From Kiritimatiella glycovorans (GTDB lineage Bacteria > Verrucomicrobiota > Kiritimatiellia > Kiritimatiellales > Kiritimatiellaceae): 32,000 nucleotides of DNA. Positions 3,429-25,933 of this stretch are shown here, in pieces. How positions within the stretch are numbered: the first letter of the stretch is position 1; every line of letters starts with the position of its first letter. The position numbers and the translations under genes are program-made. The stretch covers positions 2,220,001 to 2,252,000 of the forward strand of contig NZ_CP010904.1 of assembly GCF_001017655.1 (NCBI RefSeq), read 5' to 3'. The notes beneath the pieces are model-generated. The model saw only the letters and a program-made list of their open reading frames with translations. It ran no database searches and was not told where the DNA came from.

Positions 3429-3507
3429 AGAGGAACTGTACCCCGGACTTTGTTTAATTCGCCGCCGGAAGGTTCCGGTGCACGCACAACCAAACCATGG
3501 AGATGCT

Positions 3508-4830: not shown

Positions 4831-4844
4831 TGAGAGGAGCCACC

Positions 4845-13287: not shown

Positions 13288-13338
13288 ATTATGATCCCCC
13301 CGTCCCCGGAGTCAACGGGAAATTGCTATCGTTTGCAC
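13288..13338 (-). promoter_or_regulatory. sigma70-type promoter plus conserved upstream operator of sulfatase 11841-13262
   Basis: The minus strand reads GTGCAAACGATAGCAATTTCCCG-TTGACT-(16 nt)-CATAAT-(25 nt)-ATG. The block from GTGCAAACGATAGC to TTGAxTCC recurs almost identically at 30722-30751, upstream of a different sulfatase. Confidence 0.6.
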
Positions 13339-13364
13339 GCCTTCCGGCAGGATGCGGGGATAGA

Positions 13365-13390
13365 CCATGAAGAACATGAAGGGCATGAAG
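13365..13390 (-). repeat. three tandem 9-bp units CTTCATGNN (minus-strand reading)
   Basis: The minus strand reads CTTCATGCC-CTTCATGTT-CTTCATGGT and continues ..ATCCCC. A second array with the same orientation relative to its downstream gene is at 19486-19512. Confidence 0.75.
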
Positions 13391-13428
13391 ATTGGTTTGG
13401 GGGAGGCGAAGGCGGGCTTGCGGGCCTG

Positions 13429-14583
13429 CTACGAACGTTCTTTTTCCTTCATACGGTACTGGCGCGGGGTCATCCCGAAACGCTGCCGGAAGATGCGGTG
13501 AAGATACTCGGGCGTGTTGAATCCCGATACGGCGGCGATATCGGAGACCGAATAACTCGTCTCGCGCAGCAGCTGGCACACGCGGTTGACCCGCAACCGC
13601 ATCAGCTCGCCGTGAATGGTCTGGTTCAGACGGGCCTTGAAGCAGCGCTGCAGCGAGCGGCGCGAGGTCCCCGAAGCCTCTACGATGTCCTCGACGCTCA
13701 GGTCGCGATGGAAGTTGGCGTGGAGGTAGCGCAGCGCACGCACCATGCAGGGATCGTTGATCGCGAAAATGTCGCTGCTCTGGCGTACGGTAATGCCCCG
13801 GTGCGGGATGGTGATGATCCTGCGCGCGGAGGGCTCCCCGCTCATCAGCCGGTCCAGCTCGGCCGCCGCCCGCCTCCCCAGCTCTTCGAGGTCGTGATTG
13901 ATGCTCGACAGGGGCACCGCGGCCGTCGGGCAGATCAGCGGATGATTGTCGGTGCCGAGTACGGCCACTTCATGCGGAACCTGAATGCCGCCGGAGACAC
14001 AGGCATCGAGAAGATCGGCCGCCTGAACGTCGTTGTAGACATACGCCGCACACGGCAGGGCGGCGACCGCCAGCTCGTCGTGGATCCATGCCTCCAGCTT
14101 CTCCCACGGAGGGGTCCGGGTGCCGAACTGCGCATCGACGACCAGCCGTCGACAGTTGAACCCATGACGCGCCAGCTCCGCCGTGTAGCCCTCACAACGT
14201 TTACGGGCGGGGGCATGGTCCCGCGCCGAGAACCAGAGAAAGCTCCTGAATCCGCGATCAAGAAAATGGAGCGCGGCCTCGCGTCCCATCGCCTCGTTGT
14301 CGCCGGTCAGGTGCGGCATTGCCAGACGATCGCGGATGATCGACAGATCGACCTTCGGAACGCGGCGACGAAGCACCGCGCCGGTCAGGGGATCGTCCGG
14401 ATCCAGCACCGCCACGATCCCGTCACACCCCCGCCTGCGGATGGGACCGGGGTCCGTTCCGAAGAGATTGGTCAGGTGCCAGCGGTTCCCGCTCGCATAC
14501 TGAGCCACCCCGCGATGGACGCGCATGTTGTACCGCTCGCCCATCACCAGCAGAACCCGCCGATGCCTGATCAGTCTGTCCAT
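13429..14583 (-). CDS. XylR-like hybrid regulator: sugar-binding (LacI/PBP-type) sensor domain + C-terminal AraC-family HTH
   Basis: 384-aa ORF. The C-terminal segment VEDIVEASGTSRRSLQRCFKARLNQTIHGELMRLRVNRVCQLLRETSYSVSDIAAVSGFNTPEYLHRIFRQRFGMTPRQYR is a canonical AraC dual-HTH. The N-terminal ~270 aa have a PBP-like alternating pattern. Confidence 0.85.
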   Translation of the reverse strand: MDRLIRHRRVLLVMGERYNMRVHRGVAQYASGNRWHLTNLFGTDPGPIRRRGCDGIVAVLDPDDPLTGAVLRRRVPKVDLSIIRDRLAMPHLTGDNEAMGREAALHFLDRGFRSFLWFSARDHAPARKRCEGYTAELARHGFNCRRLVVDAQFGTRTPPWEKLEAWIHDELAVAALPCAAYVYNDVQAADLLDACVSGGIQVPHEVAVLGTDNHPLICPTAAVPLSSINHDLEELGRRAAAELDRLMSGEPSARRIITIPHRGITVRQSSDIFAINDPCMVRALRYLHANFHRDLSVEDIVEASGTSRRSLQRCFKARLNQTIHGELMRLRVNRVCQLLRETSYSVSDIAAVSGFNTPEYLHRIFRQRFGMTPRQYRMKEKERS

Positions 14584-14766: not shown

Positions 14767-15690
14767 ATGAAGATACTGAGAATCATGTTTGTGTTTGTAT
14801 TGACGCTTGCGCTCGGCGCCACGGCGTGGGCCACGGATTACACCTGGGACGGTACCGGCGACGGTACGACCTTTGATGACGCGGGAAACTGGTCTCCGGC
14901 GGGGTCCGCATTCACCACGAATGATCATTATACAGTAGACGACGGATCGGCCGTCAGCGTCACCGGAACACTGGATATCCAGTCCTTCTTTTTGGCTGGA
15001 AACGACGGAAGCATGACCATCGAGGAGGGAGCGTCGGTCTCCATCAACAAGAGCGCAGAAACTCATATTGATTCGAGCTCTACGCTGACGATTGACGGGA
15101 CGCTCTCGACGGGCGCCTATCGTTACGACCTTCGGGGGAACGGCGGTACGCTCAACATTATCGTCAATGGAACCCTGGACAGCGAACCCGCCAACAACCT
15201 GATGAGCACGGGATGCAATATGCTCATCGATGTCCATGGATCCATGGACTTTGGGGTAGGTCCAATGGGCCGCGTAGCCGGGGGCGGTCAGCGGGATCAC
15301 ACCATCAGCATTTTCACCAACGGCGTAGTGACCATGCAGAGGGACCTCCAACTCCAGGCCACGAATGGTCATACCGCCTCGGTCCGTCTGATCGGGGGGG
15401 ATCTGGATATGGGTACGCTGAGTTACCTCTATGGCGACCTTAACCTCTCGGACGAGGATAACGGGATCATCTTTCAGTCCGCCGAATCCTCCGTGTTCAT
15501 GGACGGGGACCAGACGAACACCGTTCAGGGCTGGATCGACGACGGCGCGCTCTCGTCGACGGTCGGGGACCTCCAGGTCCGATACGATGCGGGCAGCGAC
15601 CTCACGACCGTCATCCCCGAACCGGCGACGATCGGTCTGCTCGGCGCGGCGATGGGCGGCCTGATGCTGCTCCGTCGGCGCATTCGATAG
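14767..15690 (+). CDS. PEP-CTERM-anchored secreted protein carrying an uncharacterised ~295-aa module
   Basis: The track ORF starts at 14725. ATG 14767 has a GGGAGA RBS and gives the signal MKILRIMFVFVLTLALGATAWA. The C-terminus VIPEPATIGLLGAAMGGLMLLRRRIR is PEP + TM helix + Arg cluster, i.e. an exosortase sorting signal. The body starts YTWDGTGDGTTFDDAGNWSPAG. Confidence 0.85.
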   Translation: MKILRIMFVFVLTLALGATAWATDYTWDGTGDGTTFDDAGNWSPAGSAFTTNDHYTVDDGSAVSVTGTLDIQSFFLAGNDGSMTIEEGASVSINKSAETHIDSSSTLTIDGTLSTGAYRYDLRGNGGTLNIIVNGTLDSEPANNLMSTGCNMLIDVHGSMDFGVGPMGRVAGGGQRDHTISIFTNGVVTMQRDLQLQATNGHTASVRLIGGDLDMGTLSYLYGDLNLSDEDNGIIFQSAESSVFMDGDQTNTVQGWIDDGALSSTVGDLQVRYDAGSDLTTVIPEPATIGLLGAAMGGLMLLRRRIR

Positions 15691-15789
15691 CCCGGCGACG
15701 CAGCGGAGCGTTCCATTCATACCCGGCATGGAAACATGCCGGGGTCTTTGTACACGGATAAGTACATTATCGCGGCAGGGAGAGGTCTC

Positions 15790-18759
15790 ATGAAATCATT
15801 CAGCGCGCGGCTGGTTTGCATGCTGCTGCTTTCCGTGGCGGTCATACCGGCGGGGGCGGCGCCGTACAGCTGGGACGGCGGAGGCGACGGCACAAGCTTC
15901 GGCGATGCGGGGAACTGGAATCCGGCGGGGTCGTCGTTCACCACGGGAGACGATTACGCGATCGGCGACGGATCGTCCGTGAACGTCACCGGGACGGTGG
16001 AGGTCGGGTCCATCCGGCTGTACGGAAGCGAAGGGAGCCTGACCATTGAAGAAGGCGCGGCGCTCTCCATCGCCGACTCGACCAGCGGGACGATCTCCCA
16101 GATCGATGCGTCTTCGACGGTGACGATCGACGGGACGCTCTCGACCGGTTCGCAGCGTTACGATATCCGCGGACAGTCGGGTACGGTCAAGATCGCCGTC
16201 AACGGAACCTGGGACGCAGCCCCCGCCAACAACGGGATTACCGACGACGCCAACGTGCTCTTCGAGGTCAACGGCTCCATGGATTTCGGGATCCGCCACA
16301 GCTTCGGCCGCGTAGCCGGGGGCGGTCAGCGGGATCATCGCATCAGCATCTACCCCGGCGGCACCGTCACGATGCAGCAACCCCTTTCGCTGCAGGCCGC
16401 CCACGGTCATACCGCCTCCATCCGCCTGACGGGAGGGACGCTCGATATGGGCGGCGAGACCTACGAATACGAGAAGCTGGATCTCTCGGACGAGGATAAC
16501 GGGATCATCTTCCGGGATGCCGACTCGACCCTCCGGTTGAGCGGCGATCGGAGGGATCGCGTTCAGGCCTGGATCGACGACGGCGCCCTCCGCTCGGAGG
16601 TGGGCTCGCTTACGAGCCGATACGATCCCGCCGGGAACACGACGACCGTACTGCCCTCCGCGGCGGCCCCTGCGGCCCCTGCTGAGCCGGCGGAGCAGCC
16701 CGCCCGTCCAACGCAAGCCGCCGCGAAGGGGCGTGTCCGCATCCATGCCGACACGCCGTGGATCGTTCCTGACGCCTATCGCCGGCAGGTCACCGTCGGC
16801 AACGAGCCCGTCATGCGGGCGCTGGAAGACGTGAAGCGCGACTGGTACAAGGTGTTCGGTCACCGCCCCGTCGTACGGCCCCGGGCGCCGCAGAACTGGG
16901 ACGGTCCGATGATCGTCTTCGGCGTAACCCCGGACGGAGACCTCCCCCGGGGGCCCGAGAGTTTCGCCCTGCGCGTGCAAAGAGATTCCGGCGGGCCGCG
17001 CATCCTCGTCAACGGAAACGACACCCGCGGACTCATCTTTGCCGCCTATGCCCTCTCGGAAGAAATCCTCGGTGTGAACCCGTGGTATTTCTGGACCGGT
17101 CACGAACCCGAGGCGCGGCGGCATATCGACGTCCCGGCCACGCTGAACGAGACGTTCGGCCCTCCGACCTTCCGTTACCGCGGATTCTTCATCAACGACG
17201 AGGATCTGCTCGGCCGTTACTCGCCCGATCCGCTGCGCGAGACCGTCTATTCGCTCGACATGCTCGACCGCATCTGCGAGACGATTCTGCGCCTGCGGGG
17301 CAACATGATCGTGCCGGGCACCTTCAACTTTCCCGACGAACGCTGCTGGGAATTCGCCTCCCGCCGAGGTCTGGCGCTGAACATGCACCATATTTCCGTG
17401 GTGGGACTGCTCACCTGGCGCTGGCCTGAGGATGTGCCCTATTCCTACCGCAAGCATCCGGAGATTATGGAGCGCTACTGGCGCCAGTGTATCTCCGCCT
17501 TCGAGGGCTTTGAAACGGTCTGGACCGTCGGATACCGCGGCAAACATGATCGTCCTTTCTGGGAATATGAGACGGAGGTCAAAACCGCAGAGGAACGGGG
17601 AGCCGTCATCACGGAGGCCATGGCCCGCCAGGTGGAACTCATCCGCGAGGTGGACCCGGACGGCATGATCATAGCCAACCTCTGGGAGGAAGGCAGTCAG
17701 CTCATGCACGAGGGGCACGTGACACTGCCGGAGGGCGTGGTGCGGGTCTGGGCCGACAACGGCGGCGGGGTCATCGACGACGACGGTGCCGCCCGGGCCG
17801 GAGACGGCATCTACTATCACACCGCCATGATGGGGAGTATGCGCAACCAGCTGACCGAGCTGGTTACCCCGAGCCGGATCTACCGGGAACTCGGCCGCTT
17901 CGCGCGGGCCGGGGGCACGAGTTACCTGCTGGTCAACGTCAGCGACGTTAAACCGGTCCCGCTCTCCACCGAATGCGCGATGCGCTTCGCGTGGAACGCC
18001 GATCCCTACCTGGACCGGACGGACGAGCAGAACGGGGACGCGTATCTGCTCGAGTGGAGCCGGCGCGAGTTCGGGGAGGAAGTGGCGGAGGAAATTGCGG
18101 AGGTCTATGAAGGCTACTTCAATATTCCTTACAAGCGCAAACCACCCCACCGCGGCGCCAACGCCAATCACACCGTTCTCAGGCGCCAGCTCGACGGCCC
18201 CGCCGCGCCTCTGCTGGCCGCGGGCGAACCCCTAACAAAAGAGATCCTCGCGAATGCGGAGGAACTGCGGGCCTTTGCCGCATCCAATATCGCCTACGTG
18301 AAAAAACTGGCGGCCGAAGCCGAGCCGATTCTCGATCGGTTGCCCGAGCCGCGGCGCGCATTTTATCAGGAGCATGTGCTCGCCCAGATCCAGTTCCATC
18401 TCCAGGGCCTCATCATGCTGGAACAATACTGCCTGGCGCTGGAGGCGTACGATCGGAACGACACCGCCCGCGCCGTCGCCTGCGCCGAACAGGCGCTCGC
18501 GGCGTGCGAGAGGATTATCGAATCCATGCATGAGGCCGAATCGGGCCGCTGGACGACCTGGTATTACGGCGACGGCAAGGTGAACGTCGAGGACAGCCGC
18601 GACCGGATACGGGTATTGCTGGCCCGGCTGAATGGCGAGCCTCCGCCTCCGACGCGGCCGCGCAGACAGCATATCTTCGACTACCAGGAGCAGGAGAGGT
18701 TCGAGGGCAACTTCCCCTACCTGTACCCGCACTGCGACGGGAAACGCGTGATCGAGTAG
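15790..18759 (+). CDS. GH115-like glycoside hydrolase (alpha-(4-O-methyl)-glucuronidase family) with an N-terminal paralogue of the preceding PEP-CTERM module
   Basis: The track ORF starts at 15736. ATG 15790 has a GGGAGAGG RBS and gives a signal peptide. Residues ~24-300 align with CDS 14767-15690. A Pro/Ala linker (AAAPAAPAEPAEQPARP) follows. GH115-type motifs then appear: ILVNGNDTRGLIFAAYALSEEILGVNPWYFW, FRYRGFFINDEDLLG and ICETILRLRGNMIVPGTF. Confidence 0.75.
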   Translation: MKSFSARLVCMLLLSVAVIPAGAAPYSWDGGGDGTSFGDAGNWNPAGSSFTTGDDYAIGDGSSVNVTGTVEVGSIRLYGSEGSLTIEEGAALSIADSTSGTISQIDASSTVTIDGTLSTGSQRYDIRGQSGTVKIAVNGTWDAAPANNGITDDANVLFEVNGSMDFGIRHSFGRVAGGGQRDHRISIYPGGTVTMQQPLSLQAAHGHTASIRLTGGTLDMGGETYEYEKLDLSDEDNGIIFRDADSTLRLSGDRRDRVQAWIDDGALRSEVGSLTSRYDPAGNTTTVLPSAAAPAAPAEPAEQPARPTQAAAKGRVRIHADTPWIVPDAYRRQVTVGNEPVMRALEDVKRDWYKVFGHRPVVRPRAPQNWDGPMIVFGVTPDGDLPRGPESFALRVQRDSGGPRILVNGNDTRGLIFAAYALSEEILGVNPWYFWTGHEPEARRHIDVPATLNETFGPPTFRYRGFFINDEDLLGRYSPDPLRETVYSLDMLDRICETILRLRGNMIVPGTFNFPDERCWEFASRRGLALNMHHISVVGLLTWRWPEDVPYSYRKHPEIMERYWRQCISAFEGFETVWTVGYRGKHDRPFWEYETEVKTAEERGAVITEAMARQVELIREVDPDGMIIANLWEEGSQLMHEGHVTLPEGVVRVWADNGGGVIDDDGAARAGDGIYYHTAMMGSMRNQLTELVTPSRIYRELGRFARAGGTSYLLVNVSDVKPVPLSTECAMRFAWNADPYLDRTDEQNGDAYLLEWSRREFGEEVAEEIAEVYEGYFNIPYKRKPPHRGANANHTVLRRQLDGPAAPLLAAGEPLTKEILANAEELRAFAASNIAYVKKLAAEAEPILDRLPEPRRAFYQEHVLAQIQFHLQGLIMLEQYCLALEAYDRNDTARAVACAEQALAACERIIESMHEAESGRWTTWYYGDGKVNVEDSRDRIRVLLARLNGEPPPPTRPRRQHIFDYQEQERFEGNFPYLYPHCDGKRVIE

Positions 18760-18793
18760 GTCCGACCGCCTCTGCTCACAGACCCGCAGCGGG

Positions 18794-18837
18794 CCGCGAG
18801 GTGCGGACGCGTGATCGCACGCGCCTCGCGGTTCTTC
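18794..18837 (+). terminator. candidate intrinsic terminator after the GH115-like gene
   Basis: CCGCGAGG (18794-18801) pairs with CCTCGCGG (18824-18831), with an inner GCGTG/CACGC stem. It is followed by TTCTTC. Confidence 0.4.
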
Positions 18838-18881
18838 AAATCCACTCCGGAAAACACCCCCGACCCCTGAGTTCAACATTG

Positions 18882-18999
18882 GGAGACCCGGGGGAATATC
18901 GTACTCGTACTGAACCCGCGCCTGAAGGCAGGGATTCTGCTGGACAGCAGAAGGCCGTCCGCCGTGTGCGTACTCGTACGCGTAATCGGTCCCTGCCTT
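18882..18999. repeat. composite interspersed repeat (copy b, compact form of 9445-9797)
   Basis: See 9445-9797. This copy is closed by a 10-bp inverted repeat, AAGGCAGGGA (18925-18934) / TCCCTGCCTT (18990-18999). Confidence 0.8.
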
Positions 19000-19058
19000 T
19001 TCTACTCCTGAGAAGGAACCTCATCGGAGCAAGGCCCGCCATCCACTAAAAATCCTGC

Positions 19059-19148
19059 TCGTAGTAGCGCCTGGCCTGCCCCCGGCAGGCCAGGCGCGTG
19101 AAGATAACGGCCCTGGCCCTGCTTCGCAGGCCTGCGGGCCTACTACGA
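19059..19148. repeat. 90-bp multi-stem palindromic structure (outer 9-bp stem enclosing two hairpins)
   Basis: Outer stem: TCGTAGTAG (19059-19067) / CTACTACGA (19140-19148). Inner perfect 14-bp hairpin: GCGCCTGGCCTGCC-CCC-GGCAGGCCAGGCGC (19067-19097). A second small hairpin CCTGC-TTC-GCAGG lies near 19117-19130. Confidence 0.75.
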
Positions 19149-19162
19149 ACGTAAGAGAGCGC

Positions 19163-19240
19163 GCACGATCTCTTTGCCTGCGCTCTTCTCATTCATCTTT
19201 GCGATCTCTGCGCCTTGGCGAGAGTCATGTCTTGTGTTTT
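19163..19240 (+). repeat. direct repeat unit, copy 1 (period ~175 bp)
   Basis: TTTGCCTGCGCTCTTCTCATTCATCTTTGCGATCTCTGCG...CTTGTGTTTT matches copy 2 at about 90% over the first ~50 nt. Copy 1 carries extra CCTTGGCG, which pairs with CTCTCGCCAAG at 19289-19299. Confidence 0.8.
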
Positions 19241-19337
19241 TTGTCAGCGGCGGCACTCCGTCCGCTGAAGTGACTTCAATCCGTTTTTCTCTCGCCAAGC
19301 CGCCAAGGTCGCCAAGGAATTTCTTCCTTCGAGGGGG

Positions 19338-19407
19338 GCACGATTTATTTGCCTACGCTGTCCTCATCCATCTTTGCGATCTCTGCGAGAGACCTTTCTT
19401 GTGTTTT
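19338..19407 (+). repeat. direct repeat unit, copy 2
   Basis: TTTGCCTACGCTGTCCTCATCCATCTTTGCGATCTCTGCG...CTTGTGTTTT. Confidence 0.8.
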
Positions 19408-19485
19408 CGACCACGGATTACACCGGGGACACGGATGGGATCGCGCCTGCGGCGGTCCGAGTACGAGTACGAATTATGTTCACCC

Positions 19486-19512
19486 CTTCATGCTCTTCAT
19501 GTCCTTCATGGT
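19486..19512 (+). repeat. three tandem 9-bp units CTTCATGNN
   Basis: CTTCATGCT-CTTCATGTC-CTTCATGGT, followed by GAATCCC. It lies about 220 nt upstream of the PEP-CTERM gene start at 19729. Confidence 0.75.
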
Positions 19513-19728
19513 GAATCCCATTCTCTCTCCCCACGATCGCGATTCTACGCTCCCCCTGATCTTCCGCACCCCCCCTTTTTTTGGCGCAAATGTGCATTAT
19601 TTTATTTTTGAAGGTTAATTATGCATGCAGACTGAAGTCGGACTAATATGCATAGCATATACGAGGGTAATTCACAGCGGCAAGACTTGTGGATTGCGAA
19701 ATGCAGAAAACAGACAGGGAGGAGAGCG

Positions 19729-20481
19729 ATGACAGGTACAGGTTTATTCAGGCCCATGCTCGCCCTTATCGTCACGGGGCTGATTACGGGAGCGGCGCAT
19801 GCCGGCCTCATTACCAACATCACTGAAGGATTCGAGTATACCAATACTACGGAGCTTTACGACGCGGGATGGTCACACCTCTATGGCGACCAGGGGGACA
19901 TGGTTATGGCGGACGAGAACGTCAACAACCGCCTGCCTCGCTCCGGTACGTACTGCCTGCTCGCACCCTCGAACCATCAACCCAATATCGTGCAGAAGAC
20001 GTACTTTGCCGGCGGAGTCACCAACGCGACGGTAGAGTTCTACCTGATGCACCGGAATATCAGTTACCTGAATTCAGCCGACAGCTGGATGCGCCTCTAC
20101 GCGGATGACGGCACTTATATGTACCTGAAGATCAACTCGAGCAACGGAAGCCTGATTTACGATCTCAATGGCGCGGGTGATGTCACGGCTCCCGACGACG
20201 TTACGGACCACGATTCCAACGGCGGACTCTGGAACAAATTTACGTTCGAGTATGATTCCGAGGGCACCTGCGTGATGTCACTGAACGATGATGTTCAGTT
20301 CACGAACGCAAACGCCAAAAACTTCAGCAAAATCGCCCTCGGAAAATCCTGGAACGATGATTTGCGAGGACGCCAGTCAGCCTACGATGATCTGAGCATT
20401 TCGGTCATTCCCGAACCGGCCGCCCTGGGACTGATGGGGCTGGGCGTCGCGGCGCTGCTTCTCCGCAGAGTGCGATCTTAA
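19729..20481 (+). CDS. PEP-CTERM-anchored secreted protein with a concanavalin-A-like/LamG-like lectin-fold body (fold assignment tentative)
   Basis: The track ORF starts at 19648. ATG 19729 has a GGGAGGAGAG RBS and gives the signal MTGTGLFRPMLALIVTGLITGAAHA. The C-terminus VIPEPAALGLMGLGVAALLLRRVRS is a PEP-CTERM signal. GC is lower than in neighbouring genes. Confidence 0.8.
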   Translation: MTGTGLFRPMLALIVTGLITGAAHAGLITNITEGFEYTNTTELYDAGWSHLYGDQGDMVMADENVNNRLPRSGTYCLLAPSNHQPNIVQKTYFAGGVTNATVEFYLMHRNISYLNSADSWMRLYADDGTYMYLKINSSNGSLIYDLNGAGDVTAPDDVTDHDSNGGLWNKFTFEYDSEGTCVMSLNDDVQFTNANAKNFSKIALGKSWNDDLRGRQSAYDDLSISVIPEPAALGLMGLGVAALLLRRVRS

Positions 20482-20520
20482 AGGATCGAGACGCGCGGCG
20501 TGCTCGGTGAATCTGCCGTA

Positions 20521-20547
20521 GAGCGGCTCTTCGAGTCGCTCTTTTTT
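20521..20547 (+). terminator. intrinsic terminator after the PEP-CTERM lectin-like gene
   Basis: GAGCGGCTC-TTC-GAGTCGCTC is a 9-bp stem with one G-U pair. It is immediately followed by TTTTTT (20542-20547), about 40 nt after the stop codon. Confidence 0.6.
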
Positions 20548-20629: not shown

Positions 20630-23600
20630 ATGCATGCCCTACAGAAACGATCCGTCAGACTTACAGGCCTCATACTGCTGCTGTCGACCGCCGCCGCGGG
20701 GGCGCAGTCGTCCTCCCGCCTTACCGACTTTTCCTGGGCGCCGGAACCGGGCGGCGACTGGCGGGTCGAGGACGAAACCCTGACCGGCAAAGACCGTCCG
20801 CTGACGGCGGACGTGGATGCGCACGACTACGTTTTTCGGGGAGAGGCCCGCTGTATCGAGCGGGACGGGGTGGCGCAGATCTGGCTCTCATTCCGCTACC
20901 GCGACCCCTGGAACCGTTACGCGGTGGCGCTGCGCGGCGGACTCATGGACGACCTGATTCTGTACCGCTACCGGGAATCGGACGGCTCCAGCCCCGATAT
21001 CCACCTCGGACACTTCGCGCCGCTGGGTTTTGACCTCAAGCCCGGACAATGGATTCCGTTTGAGATCCGGGTCGTCGGCCCCTCCATCACCATCAGGGCG
21101 GGGGATGTCGCCGAACCCCAGATGGTCTTCGAGGATACCGGGGGGCTCACCCGCGGCGGCATCGCCGTCGGCGGCAGCTGGCACCGCTGTGAATTCCGGG
21201 ATCTCTCGATCGAACCCGTCGAACCCCGCACTGCGGGCCGGTTCTCAGACGAGGCGATCCGGATCAATTTCGTCACCCCGACCAACCCCGCCGCCTCCGG
21301 CGATCTCGTATCCGACGGAAGTGCCTTCAACGAAGCCGCGGGGCTGGGCTGGAACCGGGATGTCCGGCGGTACACGCGCGCTCGAAAGGACCGCGAGGAC
21401 GTGCCCGCGGAACAGTTGTCGGGGGTGTGCGTGGCCCACGGTCTGGATCGCGCGACGTTTCGCTATCGGCTTGAAAACGGCCGCTACTGGGTGACCCCCG
21501 TGCTGGGCGACGTGGAGTATCCCTCCCGCGCGGAGGTGCGAATAGACGAGCAGCGCGTGCTGGAACAGGAACTGGCGCGCAACGAGTTCCTGCGGCGGGG
21601 GTTCCCGGTCGAGGTCACGAACGGGGAACTCGCGCTGACCTTCGTGTCCAACCACCCCGACGGTCAACAGGGGCTGTTCCTGTCCGAATTGATTATCGAA
21701 CCCTGGAAGGACGTCGGGGAAGATAAGCTCGCCTCAAAAGAGGAGAAAGCCGCTGCGGAGCGGCGTCGGCTGAAACAGCAGCAGGAGAAACGGCTTCGCC
21801 GGCGTCAAGGCTACCGCGCTCGGAGCATGGACGCCGACACCCTGACCCTCGACGGCGACTGGCTGTTTCTGCCGGGGCGGGAGACCGGAGAGGCGGACCG
21901 GCCGCAGGCGCCGGCCGAAGCCGACGAGGACTGGCATGTGGTGGACGTGCCCGCCTTTCTCAATCCGATCTCCTTCTGGTGTCTGACCGGAAACCGCGGA
22001 CAGGCCTACGGATTCAGGCATCACGAGATGCGGCGCGTCGAAGACCTCACCTTCGACGTCCGCGACCTGCAGTCCGGCTGGTATCGCCAGTGGTTCGAAC
22101 TCCCGGAAGGAGGATCCGGGGACGGGCTGATCGCGGAGTTCGACGCGGCGGCCATGAACGCCGCCGTTTACTGCAACGGCGAGCCGGTGACCCGGCACTC
22201 CGGAATGTTCGGGCGTTTTGAGGCGGACCTCACGCCCTTCGTGCAGTGGGGCCGAACCAATCTGCTGGCGGTCTACGTCTCCAGCAACACCCGCCAGTTC
22301 AGCCGGGAGGTGGACACGGTGGCGGTCTCCGTGGAGGTGACCGAGGATATGCTCAAGTCTCTTCCCCGCGGGTTCTACCATCCCGCCTACGACGGCATGG
22401 GGCGCCGGGTGACGGACCGCCCGATCGGCCTCTGGCAGCCCGTACGCCTGAAGCGGGTATCGCGCCGCGTCCGGCTGGAGGATCTCTTCTTCAAACCGCG
22501 CACCGACGGGGCGGACCTGCAGCTCGACCTGCGCAACACCGGCCGCTCGCGCGAATCCCTGCAGATCGAAGCCGAAGTGGCCGGCCGGACCTTCACGCGC
22601 AGCACGGAGGTGGAGCCCGATCAGACCCGGAGAGTGACGCTTTCTCTCGATCCGGACGGCATCGAGCCGTGGTTCCCCCACGACCCGAATCTGTATACCT
22701 TGAAAACGACCGTCCGCGCCCTCCGTGACGGATCGGTCCTGGCGCAGGACACCCGGGAGGTCGGCTTCCGGACGATCGAGGTGGAGGGCACGCAGATCCA
22801 TATGAACGGACGACCCTACTGGCTGGGCGGCGCAAACATGGGACCGCTGGCCTACCGTCCGAACGACGCCGCACTGGCCCGGCGCTTTCTGAAGCACATG
22901 CACGAGGCCAACCAGCGCATTATGCGCTCGCACGGCTTCCCGCCGACCGAAACCTGGGCCCGGGCCGCCGACCGGTACGGGGTGGGCCTCTCATCGGAAG
23001 GCGTCTGGCCCTGGCTGATGATCCGCAACTCCGAGATCCCGGACCGGGCCCTGCTCGATCAACACAAGCGGGAGACGATCGAGATCATCAAACGGCTGCG
23101 GAATCATCCCGGCATCCTCGTGTGGACCGTAGGGAACGAGCAATACTTCATGGATGATCGCGATCCCGAGCGGAAGAAAAAGAAGTGGGCGTACTTCCAG
23201 GAACTGCTCGACCTCTACCGCACGTACGACGGCACCCGTCCGGTCATCCTCACCTCCGGGTACGTAGCCCACCCGGGACAGGCCGAATACGTCGAGGCGC
23301 ACGGATTCGATGACGGCGATCTGGCCGACCCGCACCTCTACAGCGGATGGTACACGCCCAGCGTGTTCTCCGATCAGTACGCGGAAGGACGCTACCTTCC
23401 GGCCACCCGCAAGCCGATCCTCAGCCAGGAGGCCTCGACCGGCTATCCGAACGACGATACGGGCACCTCCGAGCTGCACTACATCAAGCTCTTCGTCCCG
23501 CAGATCTGGGTGGGCGACGATGCGTTTCCCGACCGGAACCCGGACCGCTTTCTGCGTCACCAGGCCGTGGTGACCAAGGAGTGGATCGAAGACGTACGGC

Positions 23601-24703
23601 GCACCCGCCGAACGGCGGGATGGATGATGTTCAGCAACTTCAACTGGTTCCGCAACGCCTGGTCGGCGGAACACCTGGCCCCCTACCCCGTCCAAGAGTA
23701 CACCCGCAGCGCCTACGCGGACGTGCTGATCTCCGCCCGCTTCCGTAACCGCCACGTCTACGCGGGGAACGGGATCCGGGGCGAACTGGTGGTCGTCAAC
23801 GACTCCAACCGCTTCCGGGACCTCTCCCGGCTGACCTGCACCATGGAGCTCCGCGACGCCGGAGGGCGGCGGCTGGGACGCCGCCGGTTCGAGCTGCCCG
23901 ACTGTCCCTACTTCCGGAAAAGTACCGCTGAATTCTCCTTCCCGATCGCCCGCGACCGGGAAACCGACCGCGGCCCCTGCCGGCTCGAACTGTCCCTGCG
24001 CAGCGGCGACCGGATTGTGGCACGAAACCACTACCGCATACTCGTGGGCCCGAAACGCATCGACCGGCCCTTTGAAGGGCAGCGAAGGGAGCTGGTCGTG
24101 CTGCAGAACAGCCCCCTGAACGAGTATCTCAACCGCCGCGGGATCCGGTTCCGAACCGGCATGAAATCCACCGCCCATCACCAGGGTCCCCGGCTGGATC
24201 CGCAGAAGGACGTGATGCTCATCAGCGGACCCCCGGCGCCGCGGCACGACACCAACCGCGGACGGATTCTGGACTATTTCGTGCGCACGGGCGGCCGCCT
24301 CGTTCTCCTGGAAACCGGTGACGCGGCCGACCTGTTTCCGGACGACGGCATTCTCAAATATATCCCCCGCAACGTGGAACAGGCTAATATCGAGGAGACG
24401 GAGCATCCCCTCTACAAGGGCCTGCGCCACGGCGATCTGAAATGGTGGAACTCGGAGTGGTCGGGGCCGAAGGTCGCCCTCGGCACCTATGAACTGGAAT
24501 GGGACGCGCCGAACCTGGTCCCGCTCGCGGAAGACATCCGCACGCACGCCTATGGATGGAAGGGACCCAAGACCTATCCGTGTTTCCTGTACAGGTCGGG
24601 CGAAGGCGAAGCACTCGTCTGCGAACTGCGCGCATCCGCGTGGAAAACCGATCCGCTGGCGGAACGTCTGCTGTCCAACCTGCTGGACTGGGCGCTGAAG
24701 TAA
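20630..24703 (+). CDS. 1357-aa secreted GH2-family-like glycoside hydrolase with two N-terminal lectin/CBM-like domains and a long C-terminal extension
   Basis: Signal peptide: MHALQKRSVRLTGLILLLSTAAAGAQS. Residues ~30-200 are ConA-like/DUF1080-like (GDWRVEDETLTG...GIAVGGSWHRCEFRDLSIEP). Residues ~205-360 are malectin-like (AIRINFVTPTNPAASGDLVSDGSAFNEAAGLGWN). A charged linker follows. GH2-type core motifs: LDGDWLFLPG, IHMNGRPYWLGGANMG, IMRSHGFPP and VWTVGNEQYF. Confidence 0.7.
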   Translation: MHALQKRSVRLTGLILLLSTAAAGAQSSSRLTDFSWAPEPGGDWRVEDETLTGKDRPLTADVDAHDYVFRGEARCIERDGVAQIWLSFRYRDPWNRYAVALRGGLMDDLILYRYRESDGSSPDIHLGHFAPLGFDLKPGQWIPFEIRVVGPSITIRAGDVAEPQMVFEDTGGLTRGGIAVGGSWHRCEFRDLSIEPVEPRTAGRFSDEAIRINFVTPTNPAASGDLVSDGSAFNEAAGLGWNRDVRRYTRARKDREDVPAEQLSGVCVAHGLDRATFRYRLENGRYWVTPVLGDVEYPSRAEVRIDEQRVLEQELARNEFLRRGFPVEVTNGELALTFVSNHPDGQQGLFLSELIIEPWKDVGEDKLASKEEKAAAERRRLKQQQEKRLRRRQGYRARSMDADTLTLDGDWLFLPGRETGEADRPQAPAEADEDWHVVDVPAFLNPISFWCLTGNRGQAYGFRHHEMRRVEDLTFDVRDLQSGWYRQWFELPEGGSGDGLIAEFDAAAMNAAVYCNGEPVTRHSGMFGRFEADLTPFVQWGRTNLLAVYVSSNTRQFSREVDTVAVSVEVTEDMLKSLPRGFYHPAYDGMGRRVTDRPIGLWQPVRLKRVSRRVRLEDLFFKPRTDGADLQLDLRNTGRSRESLQIEAEVAGRTFTRSTEVEPDQTRRVTLSLDPDGIEPWFPHDPNLYTLKTTVRALRDGSVLAQDTREVGFRTIEVEGTQIHMNGRPYWLGGANMGPLAYRPNDAALARRFLKHMHEANQRIMRSHGFPPTETWARAADRYGVGLSSEGVWPWLMIRNSEIPDRALLDQHKRETIEIIKRLRNHPGILVWTVGNEQYFMDDRDPERKKKKWAYFQELLDLYRTYDGTRPVILTSGYVAHPGQAEYVEAHGFDDGDLADPHLYSGWYTPSVFSDQYAEGRYLPATRKPILSQEASTGYPNDDTGTSELHYIKLFVPQIWVGDDAFPDRNPDRFLRHQAVVTKEWIEDVRRTRRTAGWMMFSNFNWFRNAWSAEHLAPYPVQEYTRSAYADVLISARFRNRHVYAGNGIRGELVVVNDSNRFRDLSRLTCTMELRDAGGRRLGRRRFELPDCPYFRKSTAEFSFPIARDRETDRGPCRLELSLRSGDRIVARNHYRILVGPKRIDRPFEGQRRELVVLQNSPLNEYLNRRGIRFRTGMKSTAHHQGPRLDPQKDVMLISGPPAPRHDTNRGRILDYFVRTGGRLVLLETGDAADLFPDDGILKYIPRNVEQANIEETEHPLYKGLRHGDLKWWNSEWSGPKVALGTYELEWDAPNLVPLAEDIRTHAYGWKGPKTYPCFLYRSGEGEALVCELRASAWKTDPLAERLLSNLLDWALK

Positions 24704-24783: not shown

Positions 24784-25917
24784 ATGAGCGGAGCTGTGCA
24801 GGGAATACTGGAGCGTCGTGATCCGGGGCGGGTGGTCTACGCCCCGAACTACTGGCAGTGGTATGCGCACCACCGCCATCACGGGACGCTCCCCCCGGAA
24901 CTGGCGGACACCCGGACCCAGCTCGAGGTCATCCGACACCTCGGACTGGATGTCTTCAGCCGCAATCTCTACTGCGATCAGCGGCGCGGCTGGTTCGGCG
25001 GCCTGCTGAACCCGGTCTGGAGCGCACCGGTCACCGCCGCTGAACACGAGGAACAGGACGGCCGCGATCTCGTCCTGGAACAGCACTGGCAGACCCCCGC
25101 CGGTCCGCTCCACGAGCGCAGACGTTACGTATGGGAGGAGTCCACCCTCGTGCAGGAGGAATTTCCGATCACGGACTACGAGGAGCAGGCGGAGGCGCTG
25201 GAGGCATGGCTCGAGCACCGCACCTTCCGATTCGACCGGGATCGCTGGGAGCGCGAGACGGGGCGGCTCGACGACGGCGACGTGCTCTGCGCGGGCGAGG
25301 TCTTTTCGCCGCTGAAGCTGCTGCACCTCCTCATGGGTCCGGAACAGACGACCTTTCTGCTGACGGATCTGCCCGAACGCGCGGAGGCGTGGATGAACAC
25401 CCATCACCGCCGGCAGATCGACGGCCTGCGGACGATGCTCGAGTCGGGCGTACGCGCGGTCATGGCGATGGACAATCTCGACACGATGTTCCACCCGCCG
25501 CATTACGTCGAACGCTGGAGCGCCCCGTTCTACGAAGAGGCCGCGGCGCTCTGCCATCGGTACGATGCAACCTTCTGGATCCACGCCTGCGGAAGCCAGC
25601 GCGCCAACCTCGAGCTGATCGCCTCGCTCGGAGTGGACGGCCTCGAGGGCGTGGCCTTCCCGCCGCTGGGCGACGTGACCCTGCCCGAGGCCTTCGAGAT
25701 GACCGGCGACCGGTTCCTCATCACCGGTGGCATCAGCGCGATCGAATTCGAGTCGCTGCAGACGCGCGAGGCGGTCTTCGAGTACGTGAAACAGCTCTTC
25801 AGAAGCCTGACCCCGTACCGCCACCGCTTTATGTTCTCCGCAAGCTGCAACACGCCGATCAATGCGCGCTGGGAACAGATCGTCTGGTTCCGCGACGCGT
25901 GGCGCGAGTACGCCTGA
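24784..25917 (+). CDS. divergent URO-D-superfamily protein (second copy in the window)
   Basis: 377-aa ORF with an AAGGGAAGG RBS. The C-terminal half (FWIHACGSQRANLELIASLGVDGLEGVAFPPLGDVTLPEAFEMTGDRFLITGGIS) follows the URO-D/MtaA-type pattern (H-x-C-G...G-x-D...G-N/G). The N-terminus YAPNYWQWYAHHRHHG is atypical. Confidence 0.5.
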   Translation: MSGAVQGILERRDPGRVVYAPNYWQWYAHHRHHGTLPPELADTRTQLEVIRHLGLDVFSRNLYCDQRRGWFGGLLNPVWSAPVTAAEHEEQDGRDLVLEQHWQTPAGPLHERRRYVWEESTLVQEEFPITDYEEQAEALEAWLEHRTFRFDRDRWERETGRLDDGDVLCAGEVFSPLKLLHLLMGPEQTTFLLTDLPERAEAWMNTHHRRQIDGLRTMLESGVRAVMAMDNLDTMFHPPHYVERWSAPFYEEAAALCHRYDATFWIHACGSQRANLELIASLGVDGLEGVAFPPLGDVTLPEAFEMTGDRFLITGGISAIEFESLQTREAVFEYVKQLFRSLTPYRHRFMFSASCNTPINARWEQIVWFRDAWREYA

Positions 25918-25933
25918 CACAGAGGAGCACTCC

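What the first reader, a model, noticed from the sequence alone, without database searches (positions are those of the whole stretch)
14767..16735. One uncharacterised module, two fates: PEP-CTERM-anchored copy and tandem copy fused to a GH115-like enzyme
The mature ~295 aa of CDS 14767-15690 align end-to-end with the N-terminus of CDS 15790-18759. Examples: TDYTWDGTGDGTTFDDAGNWSPAGSAFTT vs APYSWDGGGDGTSFGDAGNWNPAGSSFTT, GRVAGGGQRDHTISI vs GRVAGGGQRDHRISI, and LSDEDNGIIF in both. Identical DNA runs of 32 nt (15268-15299 = 16306-16337) and 29 nt (15445-15473 = 16483-16511) survive. Homology stops exactly at the sorting signal. Copy 1 continues TTVIPEPATIGLL...RRRIR (PEP-CTERM). Copy 2 continues TTVLPSAAAPAAPAEPAEQPARP (a Pro/Ala linker) and then the GH115-like catalytic region. 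So the same module exists as an exosortase-sorted surface protein and as an enzyme appendage in one operon. That is the logic of a surface glycan-capture protein paired with its enzyme, but built on the PEP-CTERM/exosortase system. I cannot assign the module to a characterised CBM. Its Y-x-W-x-G-x-G-D-G...NW opening recalls autotransporter-associated beta-strand repeats or 'choice-of-anchor' type domains.
Basis: partly seen in the sequence, partly recalled or inferred. Interest (0 to 1): 0.72.

Follow-up and report, generated by a model that had tools for sequence, protein, structure and literature searches.

The report
Undescribed beta-helix module, surface-anchored and enzyme-fused
Two neighbouring genes of the marine/hypersaline sugar-degrader Kiritimatiella glycovorans carry the same undescribed ~260-residue beta-helix module, once with a cell-surface anchor and once fused to a sugar-cleaving enzyme; the same pairing recurs with other enzymes in related bacteria, so it is probably a new glycan-binding or enzyme-positioning device.

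Summary
CDS1 (14767-15690, 307 aa, signal peptide + module + PEP-CTERM) and the N-terminus of CDS2 (15790-18759, 989 aa) are 57% identical over 284 aa (E=1e-103). Both exact DNA runs exist, and homology stops at the PEP motif. The genome is Kiritimatiella glycovorans.

The module matches no Pfam or NCBIfam family, PATR and choice-of-anchor included. A confident model (pLDDT 94) has regularly spaced short strands like a beta-solenoid but no significant PDB neighbour. No charged residue is invariant, so it is probably not catalytic.

About 100 GH115-like relatives elsewhere lack the module. In K. glycovorans it replaced only their signal peptide.

A full HMMER scan of 1.84 billion representatives found 39 proteins. 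Some are stand-alone PEP-CTERM proteins. Others are fused, in one to three copies, to GH120-like, GH127, GH18, DUF4838, SASA and GDSL enzymes and to LamG proteins.

In four loci an anchored copy lies beside module-enzyme fusions. These are the window, Pontiella desulfatans and two metagenomic contigs. In most loci, copies are each other's closest relatives.

Best reading (about 0.5): a new non-catalytic, glycan-binding accessory module. Docking, spacer and envelope-retention roles remain open. Binding is untested. Exosortase presence could not be checked.

The parts
13429..14583 (-). Divergently transcribed XylR/AraC-type regulator (sugar-binding Peripla_BP_3 + HTH_18). It is the likely local regulator of the cluster.
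   Evidence: Pfam Peripla_BP_3 1.1e-26 and HTH_18 3.6e-21. A regulator of the same type ends the related locus L002.
14767..15690 (+). CDS1: 307-aa stand-alone module protein with a PEP-CTERM anchor (P0001, annotated by NCBI only as 'PEP-CTERM sorting domain-containing protein').
   Evidence: A Shine-Dalgarno-like AAGGGAG lies upstream of the ATG at 14767.
14767..14832 (+). Signal peptide of CDS1 (MKILRIMFVFVLTLALGATAWA | TDY).
   Evidence: Read directly from the sequence. The module profile starts at residue 23.
14833..15615 (+). Module copy 1 (aa 23-283): acidic, predicted beta-solenoid of about seven to eight rungs, with an N-terminal W-x-G...N-W motif and a C-terminal helix plus W-I-x-D-G-A-L motif.
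   Evidence: HMM envelope. AlphaFold2 model pLDDT 94.3, pTM 0.92. Net charge -28, pI 4.05.
15616..15687 (+). PEP-CTERM sorting signal (PEPATIGLLGAAMGGLMLLRRRIR): PEP motif, hydrophobic helix, basic tail.
   Evidence: TIGR02595 25.2 bits against a cut-off of 16. It is 88% identical to the tail of the dispersed paralog P0002.
15722..15743 (+). GC-rich hairpin (9 bp, GAAA loop) followed by GUCUUUGU in the 99-nt spacer. Possible terminator, attenuator or mRNA-stabilising stem between CDS1 and CDS2.
   Evidence: spacer MFE -37.3 kcal/mol, z = -2.7.
15790..18759 (+). CDS2: 989-aa fusion of signal peptide, module, Pro/Ala linker and GH115-family enzyme (P0003).
15859..16653 (+). Module copy 2 (aa 24-288 of CDS2), starting directly after the signal peptide (…VIPAGA | APYSWDG).
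   Evidence: HMM envelope. It is 60% identical to copy 1, its nearest relative among all copies collected.
16654..16734 (+). Pro/Ala-rich linker (PSAAAPAAPAEPAEQPARPTQAAAKGR). It shows no homology to the PEP-CTERM tail or to the spacer.
16735..18756 (+). GH115-family enzyme part (aa 316-989). The Pfam GH115 domain covers aa 457-785 (17158-18144). This part is orthologous to ~690-aa proteins that have only a signal peptide in front.
   Evidence: Pfam 3.2e-65. BtGH115A 5by3 matches at E=5e-36. Ortholog P0005 is 59% identical, with the alignment starting at query aa 316 = ortholog aa 26.
15268..15299 (+). 32-nt stretch identical to 16306-16337 (encodes GRVAGGGQRDH, a loop specific to this pair and its closest relatives).
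15445..15473 (+). 29-nt stretch identical to 16483-16511 (encodes LSDEDNGIIF; the G-I-I-F part is family-wide).

Best explanation
The two genes carry paralogous copies of an undescribed ~260-residue acidic module that is predicted to be a beta-helix (beta-solenoid). So far it is found only in Kiritimatiellota-type genomes. What is shown: (1) The module exists in three forms. One is alone with a PEP-CTERM anchor, one is alone without an anchor, and one is fused in one to three copies, N- or C-terminally, to many unrelated glycan-active enzymes. (2) Anchored and fused copies are encoded side by side, and in most loci they are each other's closest relatives. (3) In K. glycovorans the module plus a Pro/Ala linker was placed in front of a GH115-family enzyme whose orthologs elsewhere carry only a signal peptide. 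(4) No charged residue is invariant across copies. What is inferred: the module is a non-catalytic, carbohydrate-binding (CBM-like or adhesin-like) domain. CDS1 would be exported by Sec, processed by an exosortase and displayed on the cell envelope, where it would hold the cluster's target polysaccharide. CDS2 would use its own copy to keep the GH115-type glucuronidase on the same glycan. The hairpin between the genes would allow more anchored binder than enzyme to be made. Binding, surface location and substrate are all untested.
For: The paralogy is robust. The module is absent from Pfam and NCBIfam in all 24 copies tested. It has no relative among solved structures by sequence or by Foldseek with a pLDDT-94 model; the weak hits are nearly all beta-helix adhesins, autotransporter passengers, pectate lyases, tapirins and CBM89. 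The invariant residues are W5, W20, G89, G113, G188, G189, G211 and W234, and none is charged, which argues against catalysis. The fusion partners have the spread typical of an accessory module: GH115 (window), GH120-like beta-helix (P0111), GH127 (P0115), GH67N+DUF4838 (P0136), GH18 EndoS-like enzymes, SASA esterase, GDSL esterase and LamG proteins, with tandem repeats of two to three copies. The anchored-plus-fused arrangement is seen in the window, L001 (P0109 then P0111; 33% identity, E=1e-37, also ending at the PEP motif), L002 (P0140 then two GH18 fusions) and L007 in Pontiella desulfatans. Nearest-neighbour values within loci are 60% in the window, 76% in L007 (anchored copy against the SASA enzyme copy) and 48% in L002 (anchored copy against the 780-aa GH18's copy, its nearest). 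None of the 100 GH115-like relatives carries the module, and ortholog alignment shows a clean insertion after the signal peptide. Two beta-helix domains on enzymes have been shown experimentally to be CBMs. These are CBM89 on a GH10 xylanase (PMC8810776) and the N-terminal domain of the Akkermansia sulfatase Amuc0953, which binds colonic mucin (bioRxiv 10.1101/2025.09.11.675649). The window is a glycan-utilisation cluster with three sulfatases, a GH2, an F5/8 type C protein, an SSF transporter and a XylR-type regulator.
Against: There are no binding data. Every copy is strongly acidic, with net charge -6 to -30 and pI 4.05-4.8. That is awkward for binding uronic or sulfated glycans unless cations bridge the interaction. 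Family-wide conservation sits in the N- and C-terminal motifs and in glycines, not in an obvious ligand platform. The very wide range of partner enzymes fits a generic localisation role as well as it fits a substrate-specific CBM. Within-locus similarity can also arise from local duplication and gene conversion alone. There is no significant structural similarity to CBM89 (7jvi E=2.3, TM 0.21). One anchored copy (L008/L009) has no fused partner within 10 kb. The L001 pair are not each other's nearest relatives. Exosortase presence was not verified.
Confidence: 0.5

Rival explanations
1. Docking system. The module binds itself or a cognate copy. The PEP-CTERM-anchored copy would then act as a surface scaffold that holds module-tagged enzymes at the cell, much like cohesin-dockerin but built on one self-associating beta-helix.
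For: Anchored and enzyme-borne copies are co-encoded and are most similar to each other within most loci, as expected for cognate partners. The enzymes carrying the module are too diverse for one glycan specificity. Non-catalytic proteins with two or three modules exist (P0104, P0105, the L005 1034-aa protein) and could serve as scaffolds. The best, though non-significant, fold hits are the self-associating autotransporters TibA and Ag43. CDS2 has no anchor of its own.
Against: There is no evidence of self-association. The fold hits are not significant (E>=0.35). Anchor-free stand-alone copies exist (P0106, P0110). L005 has eight module copies but no PEP-CTERM protein in 22.9 kb. Tandem copies are equally typical of CBMs.
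Confidence: 0.15
2. Structural role only. The beta-helix is a rigid spacer, a folding or secretion aid, or a surface-coat element similar to an autotransporter passenger stalk. Anchored copies would be coat or aggregation proteins. The adjacency to fusions would reflect local duplication and domain shuffling, not joint function.
For: Conservation is concentrated in the terminal motifs and glycines, which are structural positions. The N-terminal motif is shared with PATR-type beta-helix proteins. There is a weak full-length resemblance to the flocculation PEP-CTERM protein PepA (32 bits, cut-off 80). The acidic, G/S/T/N-rich composition suits a hydrated surface layer. P0001 shows signs of gene conversion.
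Against: A stalk with nothing at its end (the stand-alone anchored form) has no obvious use. The module occurs C-terminally as well as N-terminally (P0115, P0136), so it is not a secretion leader. Repeated independent fusions to at least eight glycan-active families, always inside glycan-utilisation clusters, point to a role in glycan use.
Confidence: 0.2
3. Envelope-retention module. The conserved terminal motifs bind the cell's own exopolysaccharide or outer-membrane glycan. Enzymes would thereby be kept on the cell without a covalent anchor, functionally like SLH or LysM domains.
For: The family-invariant residues are aromatic (W5, W20, W234, near-invariant Y251) and sit in motifs common to all copies whatever the partner enzyme, which suggests a common ligand. 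PEP-CTERM systems are associated with exopolysaccharide production (PMC3048395, citing Haft 2006).
Against: It does not explain why a copy that is already anchored by PEP-CTERM would need such a module. It also does not explain why copies diverge by locus. There are no data.
Confidence: 0.1
4. The module is itself an enzyme, for example a beta-helix polysaccharide lyase, hydrolase or esterase.
For: Parallel beta-helices are common catalytic folds for polysaccharide lyases and GH28-type hydrolases. Weak fold hits include pectate lyases.
Against: No invariant or near-invariant Asp, Glu, Lys, Arg or His occurs among the 24 copies. No PL, GH or CE family matches. The size, about 260 aa in seven to eight rungs, is small for such enzymes.
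Confidence: 0.03

Closest known systems
CBM89 (beta-helix xylan-binding module of the capybara-gut GH10 xylanase; PDB 7jvi; PMC8810776)
   Same: A large non-catalytic beta-helix domain attached to a glycoside hydrolase. It shows that beta-helices can act as CBMs.
   Different: No detectable homology (Foldseek E=2.3, TM 0.21; no sequence match). CBM89 is not known as a separately anchored surface protein. Binding has been shown for CBM89 and not here.
N-terminal beta-helix domain of Akkermansia muciniphila sulfatase Amuc0953 (proposed new CBM family; bioRxiv 10.1101/2025.09.11.675649)
   Same: An N-terminal beta-helix on a glycan-active enzyme of a PVC-group bacterium. Its sequence family is rare and lineage-restricted.
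   Different: That family is almost always attached to one enzyme type (sulfatase) and is not described as a PEP-CTERM protein. Sequence or structure similarity to the present module could not be tested because no coordinates or sequence were available here.
Surface glycan-binding proteins plus CBM-bearing surface enzymes of Bacteroidota Sus-like systems (SusE/F with SusG; textbook knowledge)
   Same: The logic is the same: a cell-anchored non-catalytic binder is encoded next to the enzyme that cuts the same glycan.
   Different: The anchor would be PEP-CTERM/exosortase instead of a lipoprotein. No SusC/D pair is present. Here the binder and the enzyme appendage are paralogs of one module. Function is not shown.
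Cohesin-dockerin cellulosomes
   Same: An anchored non-catalytic protein and many different enzymes share a recognisable module. Multi-module non-catalytic proteins also exist.
   Different: There is one module type on both sides instead of two complementary ones. The fold is different, and no evidence of protein-protein binding exists.
PATR-type and self-associating autotransporter passengers (Ag43, TibA, pertactin) and TIGR04393 'T5SS/PEP-CTERM-associated repeat' proteins
   Same: A beta-solenoid built of short rungs, an N-terminal W-x-G...N-W motif and a surface location.
   Different: No PATR, Pertactin or TIGR04393 match reaches threshold. There is no beta-barrel translocator. The module is a discrete ~260-aa unit with its own C-terminal helix and motif.
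Tapirins of Caldicellulosiruptor (beta-helix cellulose adhesins; PDB 4wa0, 6n2c)
   Same: Stand-alone beta-helix surface proteins of polysaccharide degraders that bind the substrate.
   Different: Only non-significant fold resemblance. Tapirins are not fused to enzymes and are not PEP-CTERM proteins.
NCBIfam 'choice-of-anchor' domains and the flocculation PEP-CTERM protein PepA (NF033554)
   Same: Like a choice-of-anchor domain, the module is found with different C-terminal ends (PEP-CTERM, none, another ~80-aa domain, or an enzyme). PepA is a PEP-CTERM surface protein of similar size.
   Different: No choice-of-anchor model matches. PepA scores 32 bits against a cut-off of 80.

Membership tests
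PEP-CTERM / exosortase substrates (CDS1) | C-terminal PEP motif + hydrophobic helix + basic cluster matching TIGR02595 | tested here: met
   TIGR02595 scores 25.2 bits against a cut-off of 16, at residues 283-306. Pfam PF07589 is just below its threshold (18.3 against 20.7).
PEP-CTERM / exosortase substrates (CDS1) | N-terminal Sec signal peptide | tested here: met
   MKILRIMFVFVLTLALGATAWA|TDY, read from the sequence. No dedicated predictor was available.
PEP-CTERM / exosortase substrates (CDS1) | An exosortase (EpsH/Xrt) encoded in the same genome | not testable with these tools
   Only 32 kb of the genome is available. The genome-contig scans returned nothing for this lineage. At least three PEP-CTERM proteins exist in K. 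glycovorans (two in the window plus P0002), and PEP-CTERM is reported to co-occur with EpsH (PMC3048395, citing Haft 2006). Presence is therefore only inferred.
Glycoside hydrolase family 115 (C-terminal two thirds of CDS2) | Match to the GH115 catalytic-domain model above threshold | tested here: met
   PF15979 scores 221.3 bits against a cut-off of 27, covering 2-333 of 335 profile positions.
Glycoside hydrolase family 115 (C-terminal two thirds of CDS2) | Homology to structurally characterised GH115 enzymes | tested here: met
   BtGH115A 5by3 matches at E=5.2e-36. 4zmh, 4c90, 7pug and 6nps match between 1e-17 and 1e-28. The alignment keeps the FINDED and RG-x-HD segments.
Glycoside hydrolase family 115 (C-terminal two thirds of CDS2) | Conserved catalytic residues and alpha-glucuronidase activity | not tested
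   Residue numbering of the proposed catalytic residues was not available in the papers read. The protein belongs to a divergent ~690-aa subfamily that is only about 25% identical to canonical ~1000-aa GH115 proteins. Substrate is unknown.
PATR (PF12951 / autotransporter-associated beta-strand repeat) | Match to the PATR repeat model | tested here: not met
   None of the 24 module copies hits PATR at E<=1. hhalign against a true PATR region aligns only the 21-residue N-terminal motif, with probability 65%.
NCBIfam choice-of-anchor families | Match to any choice-of-anchor model | tested here: not met
   No such model appears for any of the 24 copies at E<=1.
Pertactin / autotransporter passenger | Pertactin-domain match and a C-terminal beta-barrel translocator | tested here: not met
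   Pertactin scores 16.9-17.4 bits against a cut-off of 22. Neither protein has an autotransporter beta-domain.
Flocculation PEP-CTERM protein PepA (NF033554) | Equivalog score >= 80 bits | tested here: not met
   32.1 bits. The module alone gives no hit.
Known CBM families (CBM89 as the only beta-helix one with a solved structure) | Sequence or structural similarity to a founding member | tested here: not met
   Foldseek against 7jvi gives E=2.3 and TM 0.21. The module profile against all PDB sequences finds nothing below E=0.03. dbCAN/CAZy CBM models were not available, so other CBM families were tested only through Pfam.
Known CBM families | Demonstrated carbohydrate binding by the isolated module | not testable with these tools
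   This requires an experiment.

The most novel reading that the evidence does not exclude
The module is a self-recognising beta-helix. The exosortase-anchored copy would act as a docking post, and every enzyme carrying a cognate copy (here the GH115-type glucuronidase) would be held on it. Kiritimatiellota would then have a cellulosome-like surface enzyme display built from one module type and the PEP-CTERM system, with locus-specific module variants giving locus-specific assemblies.
Probability: 0.12. Interest if true: 0.85.

Novelty: new variant of a known kind. Interest (0 to 1): 0.62.

Why it matters
PVC-group bacteria such as Kiritimatiellota are major anaerobic degraders of sulfated and complex marine polysaccharides. 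They lack the SusC/D machinery that explains glycan capture in Bacteroidota, so how they hold substrate and enzymes at the cell is poorly understood. A lineage-specific module that is both displayed through PEP-CTERM/exosortase and attached to at least eight unrelated enzyme families, always inside glycan-utilisation clusters, is a concrete and cloneable candidate for that missing step. If it binds glycans, it founds a new beta-helix CBM family and gives PEP-CTERM proteins, whose roles are mostly unknown, a defined function. If it binds itself, it is a new enzyme-display principle. In both cases the family is missing from Pfam and NCBIfam, and the alignment made here (24 copies, A2) would suffice to define it.

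Tried and rejected
1. The word-indexed homolog search with the module found only P0001 and P0002 and missed the 57%-identical P0003. Repeating it with the 24-copy profile added only P0140. I therefore did not trust its negatives and relied on the full HMMER scan.
2. Two genome-contig scans and the first metagenome scan confirmed no relative. Even K. glycovorans and Pontiella were not returned. No species-level distribution or exosortase check was possible as a result. The second metagenome scan, with a sub-family alignment, gave only three distant partial matches, L014-L016, which I did not use.
4. I tested whether the CDS2 linker is a decayed PEP-CTERM tail or spacer. It shows no similarity above shuffles, so this is rejected.
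5. I tested whether the second PEP-CTERM protein of the window (19648-20481) is a paralog of the N-terminal extension of the GH2 that follows it. The result was not significant (E=0.38), and there was none with the F5/8 protein either.
6. Rfam found nothing in the window.
7. Literature searches linking PEP-CTERM or exosortase to Kiritimatiellota found nothing relevant.
8. A catalytic role for the module is rejected because no charged residue is conserved.

Full report
**1.

The window encodes CDS1 (14767-15690, 307 aa) and CDS2 (15790-18759, 989 aa) on the + strand. BLASTP aligns CDS1 residues 5-284 with CDS2 residues 7-289. There are 163/284 identities (57%) and E=1e-103.

The two exact DNA runs are real and are the longest shared runs. 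They are 32 nt at 15268/16306 and 29 nt at 15445/16483. Overall nucleotide identity is 66.8%. Identical codons at identical residues number 104 of 163, against 74 expected from codon usage. A 32-nt run arises in 27 of 5000 codon-column shuffles. The copies are therefore moderately diverged paralogs with locally clustered identity. That clustering could reflect constraint or small conversion tracts.

Homology ends at the sorting signal. The last 24 residues of CDS1 are 21% identical to CDS2. DNA downstream of the boundary scores the same as shuffles.

The CDS1 tail passes the TIGR02595 PEP-CTERM cut-off. CDS2 residues 457-785 match Pfam GH115 at 3.2e-65.

Database hits at 100% identity name the organism as Kiritimatiella glycovorans, on a 2.95-Mb contig.

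**2. Surroundings**

The window is a glycan-utilisation region. It holds:
- three sulfatases;
- a GH2 and an F5/8-type-C protein;
- an SSF transporter;
- GFO/IDH/MocA and xylose-isomerase-like proteins;
- two URO-D-like genes;
- a divergent XylR/AraC regulator directly upstream of CDS1.

A 9-bp GC-rich hairpin with a GAAA loop and a U-rich tail lies in the 99-nt CDS1-CDS2 spacer. 'One operon' is therefore not established, and unequal expression is plausible. An HMM of the module finds only these two copies in the window.

**3. The enzyme part**

About 100 relatives of CDS2 were retrieved, at roughly 45-60% identity. They are 650-740 aa long and cover only the C-terminal two thirds of CDS2. For ortholog P0005 the alignment starts at CDS2 residue 316 and ortholog residue 26, just after its signal peptide. 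K. glycovorans has therefore put signal peptide, module and a Pro/Ala linker in place of the ordinary signal peptide. No other retrieved relative has the module.

The enzyme is a genuine but divergent GH115 member (BtGH115A, E=5e-36).

**4. The module is an undescribed family**

No Pfam or NCBIfam model matches consistently or above its cut-off, either in the two window proteins or in 24 copies scanned one by one. PATR, choice-of-anchor, Pertactin (17 bits against 22) and PepA (32 bits against 80) all fail.

A full HMMER scan of 1.84 billion representative proteins found 39 hits, of which about 20 carry full-length modules.

An AlphaFold2 model built on 24 copies is confident, with pLDDT 94.3 and pTM 0.92. 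Its secondary structure consists of short strands at regular spacing, which suggests a beta-solenoid of about seven to eight rungs with roughly three strands per rung. It starts with an N-terminal strand and ends with a helix (residues 228-237) followed by strands.

Foldseek against the PDB gives no significant neighbour (best E=0.35, TM at most 0.30). The weak hits are nearly all beta-helix adhesins, autotransporter passengers, tapirins, pectin enzymes and CBM89. The profile finds nothing among PDB sequences. Only the N-terminal W-x-G-G...N-W motif resembles the start of a PATR-type helix (21 residues, probability 65%).

Invariant residues across the 24 copies are W5, W20, G89, G113, G188, G189, G211 and W234. 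No Asp, Glu, Lys, Arg or His is conserved, which argues against catalysis. Every copy is strongly acidic, with net charge -6 to -30 and pI 4.05-4.8.

**5. Architectures and neighbourhoods elsewhere**

The module occurs in the following forms:

| Form | Examples |
|---|---|
| Alone with a PEP-CTERM tail | P0002, P0108, P0109, P0113, P0119, P0140 |
| Alone without an anchor | P0106, P0110 |
| Two or three tandem copies | P0103, P0104, P0105 |
| Fused to a GH120-like beta-helix | P0111 |
| Fused to GH127, C-terminally | P0115 |
| Fused to GH67N + DUF4838, C-terminally | P0136 |
| Fused to LamG | P0134 |
| Fused to PATR + DUF11 | P0123 |

Mapping the HMM on the DNA of related loci added further partners. 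These are two EndoS-like GH18 enzymes, a GDSL esterase, a SASA esterase and a GH39-like protein.

The anchored-plus-fused arrangement recurs with different enzymes:
- **L001.** P0109 (PEP-CTERM) is followed by P0111 (module + GH120-like). They are 33% identical (E=1e-37), and the similarity again ends at the PEP motif.
- **L002.** P0140 (PEP-CTERM) is followed by two module-GH18 genes and a module-LamG gene.
- **L007.** This locus is from Pontiella desulfatans; the contig identity is confirmed in PMC13059095. P0113 (PEP-CTERM) lies between a two-module protein and a two-module enzyme, and a module-SASA enzyme follows two genes further downstream.

One anchored copy (P0119, L008/L009) has no fused partner nearby.

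In most loci the copies are each other's nearest relatives. The values are 60% in the window, 76% for P0113 against the SASA enzyme's copy, and 48-94% within L002. The L001 pair is an exception.

P0001 is a mosaic. Its body is 61% identical to CDS2 but only 27-38% identical to P0002, while its PEP-CTERM tail is 88% identical to P0002.

**6. Interpretation**

Shown:
- a new lineage-restricted module that is predicted to be a beta-helix;
- three fates: anchored, free and enzyme-fused;
- repeated co-location of the anchored and fused forms;
- a clean, lineage-specific fusion to a GH115-type enzyme;
- lack of a conserved catalytic residue.

Inferred: the function. The distribution on many unrelated glycan-active enzymes, at either end and in tandem, inside glycan-utilisation clusters, is what accessory carbohydrate-binding modules show. 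Two beta-helix domains on enzymes have been proven to be CBMs. They are CBM89 (PMC8810776) and the Amuc0953 N-terminal domain in another PVC bacterium (bioRxiv 10.1101/2025.09.11.675649).

I therefore favour a glycan-binding module used both as a surface binder and as an enzyme appendage (about 0.5). Several observations count against this:
- uniform acidity of all copies;
- conservation confined to the terminal motifs;
- the very broad range of partner enzymes.

These keep three rivals open: module-module docking (0.15), a purely structural or coat role (0.2), and retention on the cell's own envelope polymer (0.1).

Exosortase presence in the genome could not be tested. It is expected from the reported co-occurrence of PEP-CTERM proteins with EpsH, documented for example in Akkermansia (PMC3048395).

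**7. Novelty**

NCBI names the proteins only 'PEP-CTERM sorting domain-containing protein' and 'glycosyl hydrolase 115 family protein'. No domain model covers the module. No paper in the library links PEP-CTERM proteins to Kiritimatiellota.

The logic of a surface binder plus a binder-tagged enzyme is known from other phyla. What is new here is that the binder and the tag are one paralogous, undescribed beta-helix, and that the anchor is PEP-CTERM.

Noticed in passing
window 19648-20481 (+) and 20630-24703 (+): A second, unrelated PEP-CTERM protein (TIGR02595 21 bits, Pfam 23.1 bits) lies directly upstream of a 1357-aa GH2 that has a ~480-aa N-terminal extension with a faint DUF1080/LamG-like signal. 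A terminator-like hairpin sits at 20520-20542. The layout repeats the 'anchored protein then large enzyme' order, but BLASTP between the two is not significant (E=0.38). The one weak segment joins the ends of the two N-terminal domains.
   Followed up: partly
L010 and L011 (orthologs of the GH115 part); window 645-1679, 1749-3428, 3478-4830, 4512-7880, 24784-25917, 25862-29041: The module-less GH115-like orthologs sit in a conserved set: B12-binding protein, large F5/8-type-C protein, transporter, URO-D-like protein, GFO/IDH/MocA and xylose-isomerase-like TIM barrel. Most of these families are also in the window. A URO-D-like gene together with a corrinoid protein suggests anaerobic demethylation of a methylated sugar, which would fit a 4-O-methyl-glucuronidase.
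   Followed up: partly
window 18760-19647: This is an 890-nt stretch with no convincing gene and lower GC (54%). It holds 50-nt direct repeats (19163-19212 / 19338-19387, 88%), 23-nt repeats (19218 / 19385) and an inverted repeat (19197-19224 / 19289-19316). There is no Rfam match. A related sequence, translating as HALHVLHG, also appears near 13290-13430.
   Followed up: partly
P0104, P0105, P0107, P0122; L007 16537-20457; L006 1-762: Module proteins that lack PEP-CTERM often end in a ~80-aa domain closing with ...EFFRVxxE, ...QFIRLRIDR or ...LFLRLDVETR. It has no Pfam hit and is a candidate alternative C-terminal sorting or anchoring domain in this lineage.
   Followed up: no
L002 9128-9916 and L005 8938-9786: Prepilin-type (N_methyl) genes of 262-282 aa lie immediately upstream of the module gene clusters in both long metagenomic contigs.
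   Followed up: no
P0001 against P0002 (second K. glycovorans locus, DNA not retrievable): The two dispersed PEP-CTERM paralogs are 37% identical overall but 88% identical over the last 24 residues, and nearly identical from about residue 235 onward. This points to gene conversion or strong shared constraint on the C-terminal motif plus sorting signal.
   Followed up: partly
L002 and L005 (JGI 3300035390); P0134, P0136: In this divergent sub-family the module proteins end in dockerin-like D-x-N-G-D / D-F-x-x-L-A-x-x-W motifs (Dockerin_1 E=0.0034 in P0134).
   Followed up: no
window 6001-7000, inside ORF 4512-7880 (+): GC reaches 75% over 1 kb, inside a 1122-aa ORF that combines a xylose-isomerase-like TIM barrel with HEAT repeats. 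The ORF overlaps the preceding GFO/IDH/MocA ORF by about 320 nt, so its true start is probably further downstream.
   Followed up: no
tool behaviour: The word-indexed protein search missed a 57%-identical paralog. The genome collection returned neither K. glycovorans nor Pontiella. Negative results from those tools are therefore weak for this lineage.
   Followed up: yes
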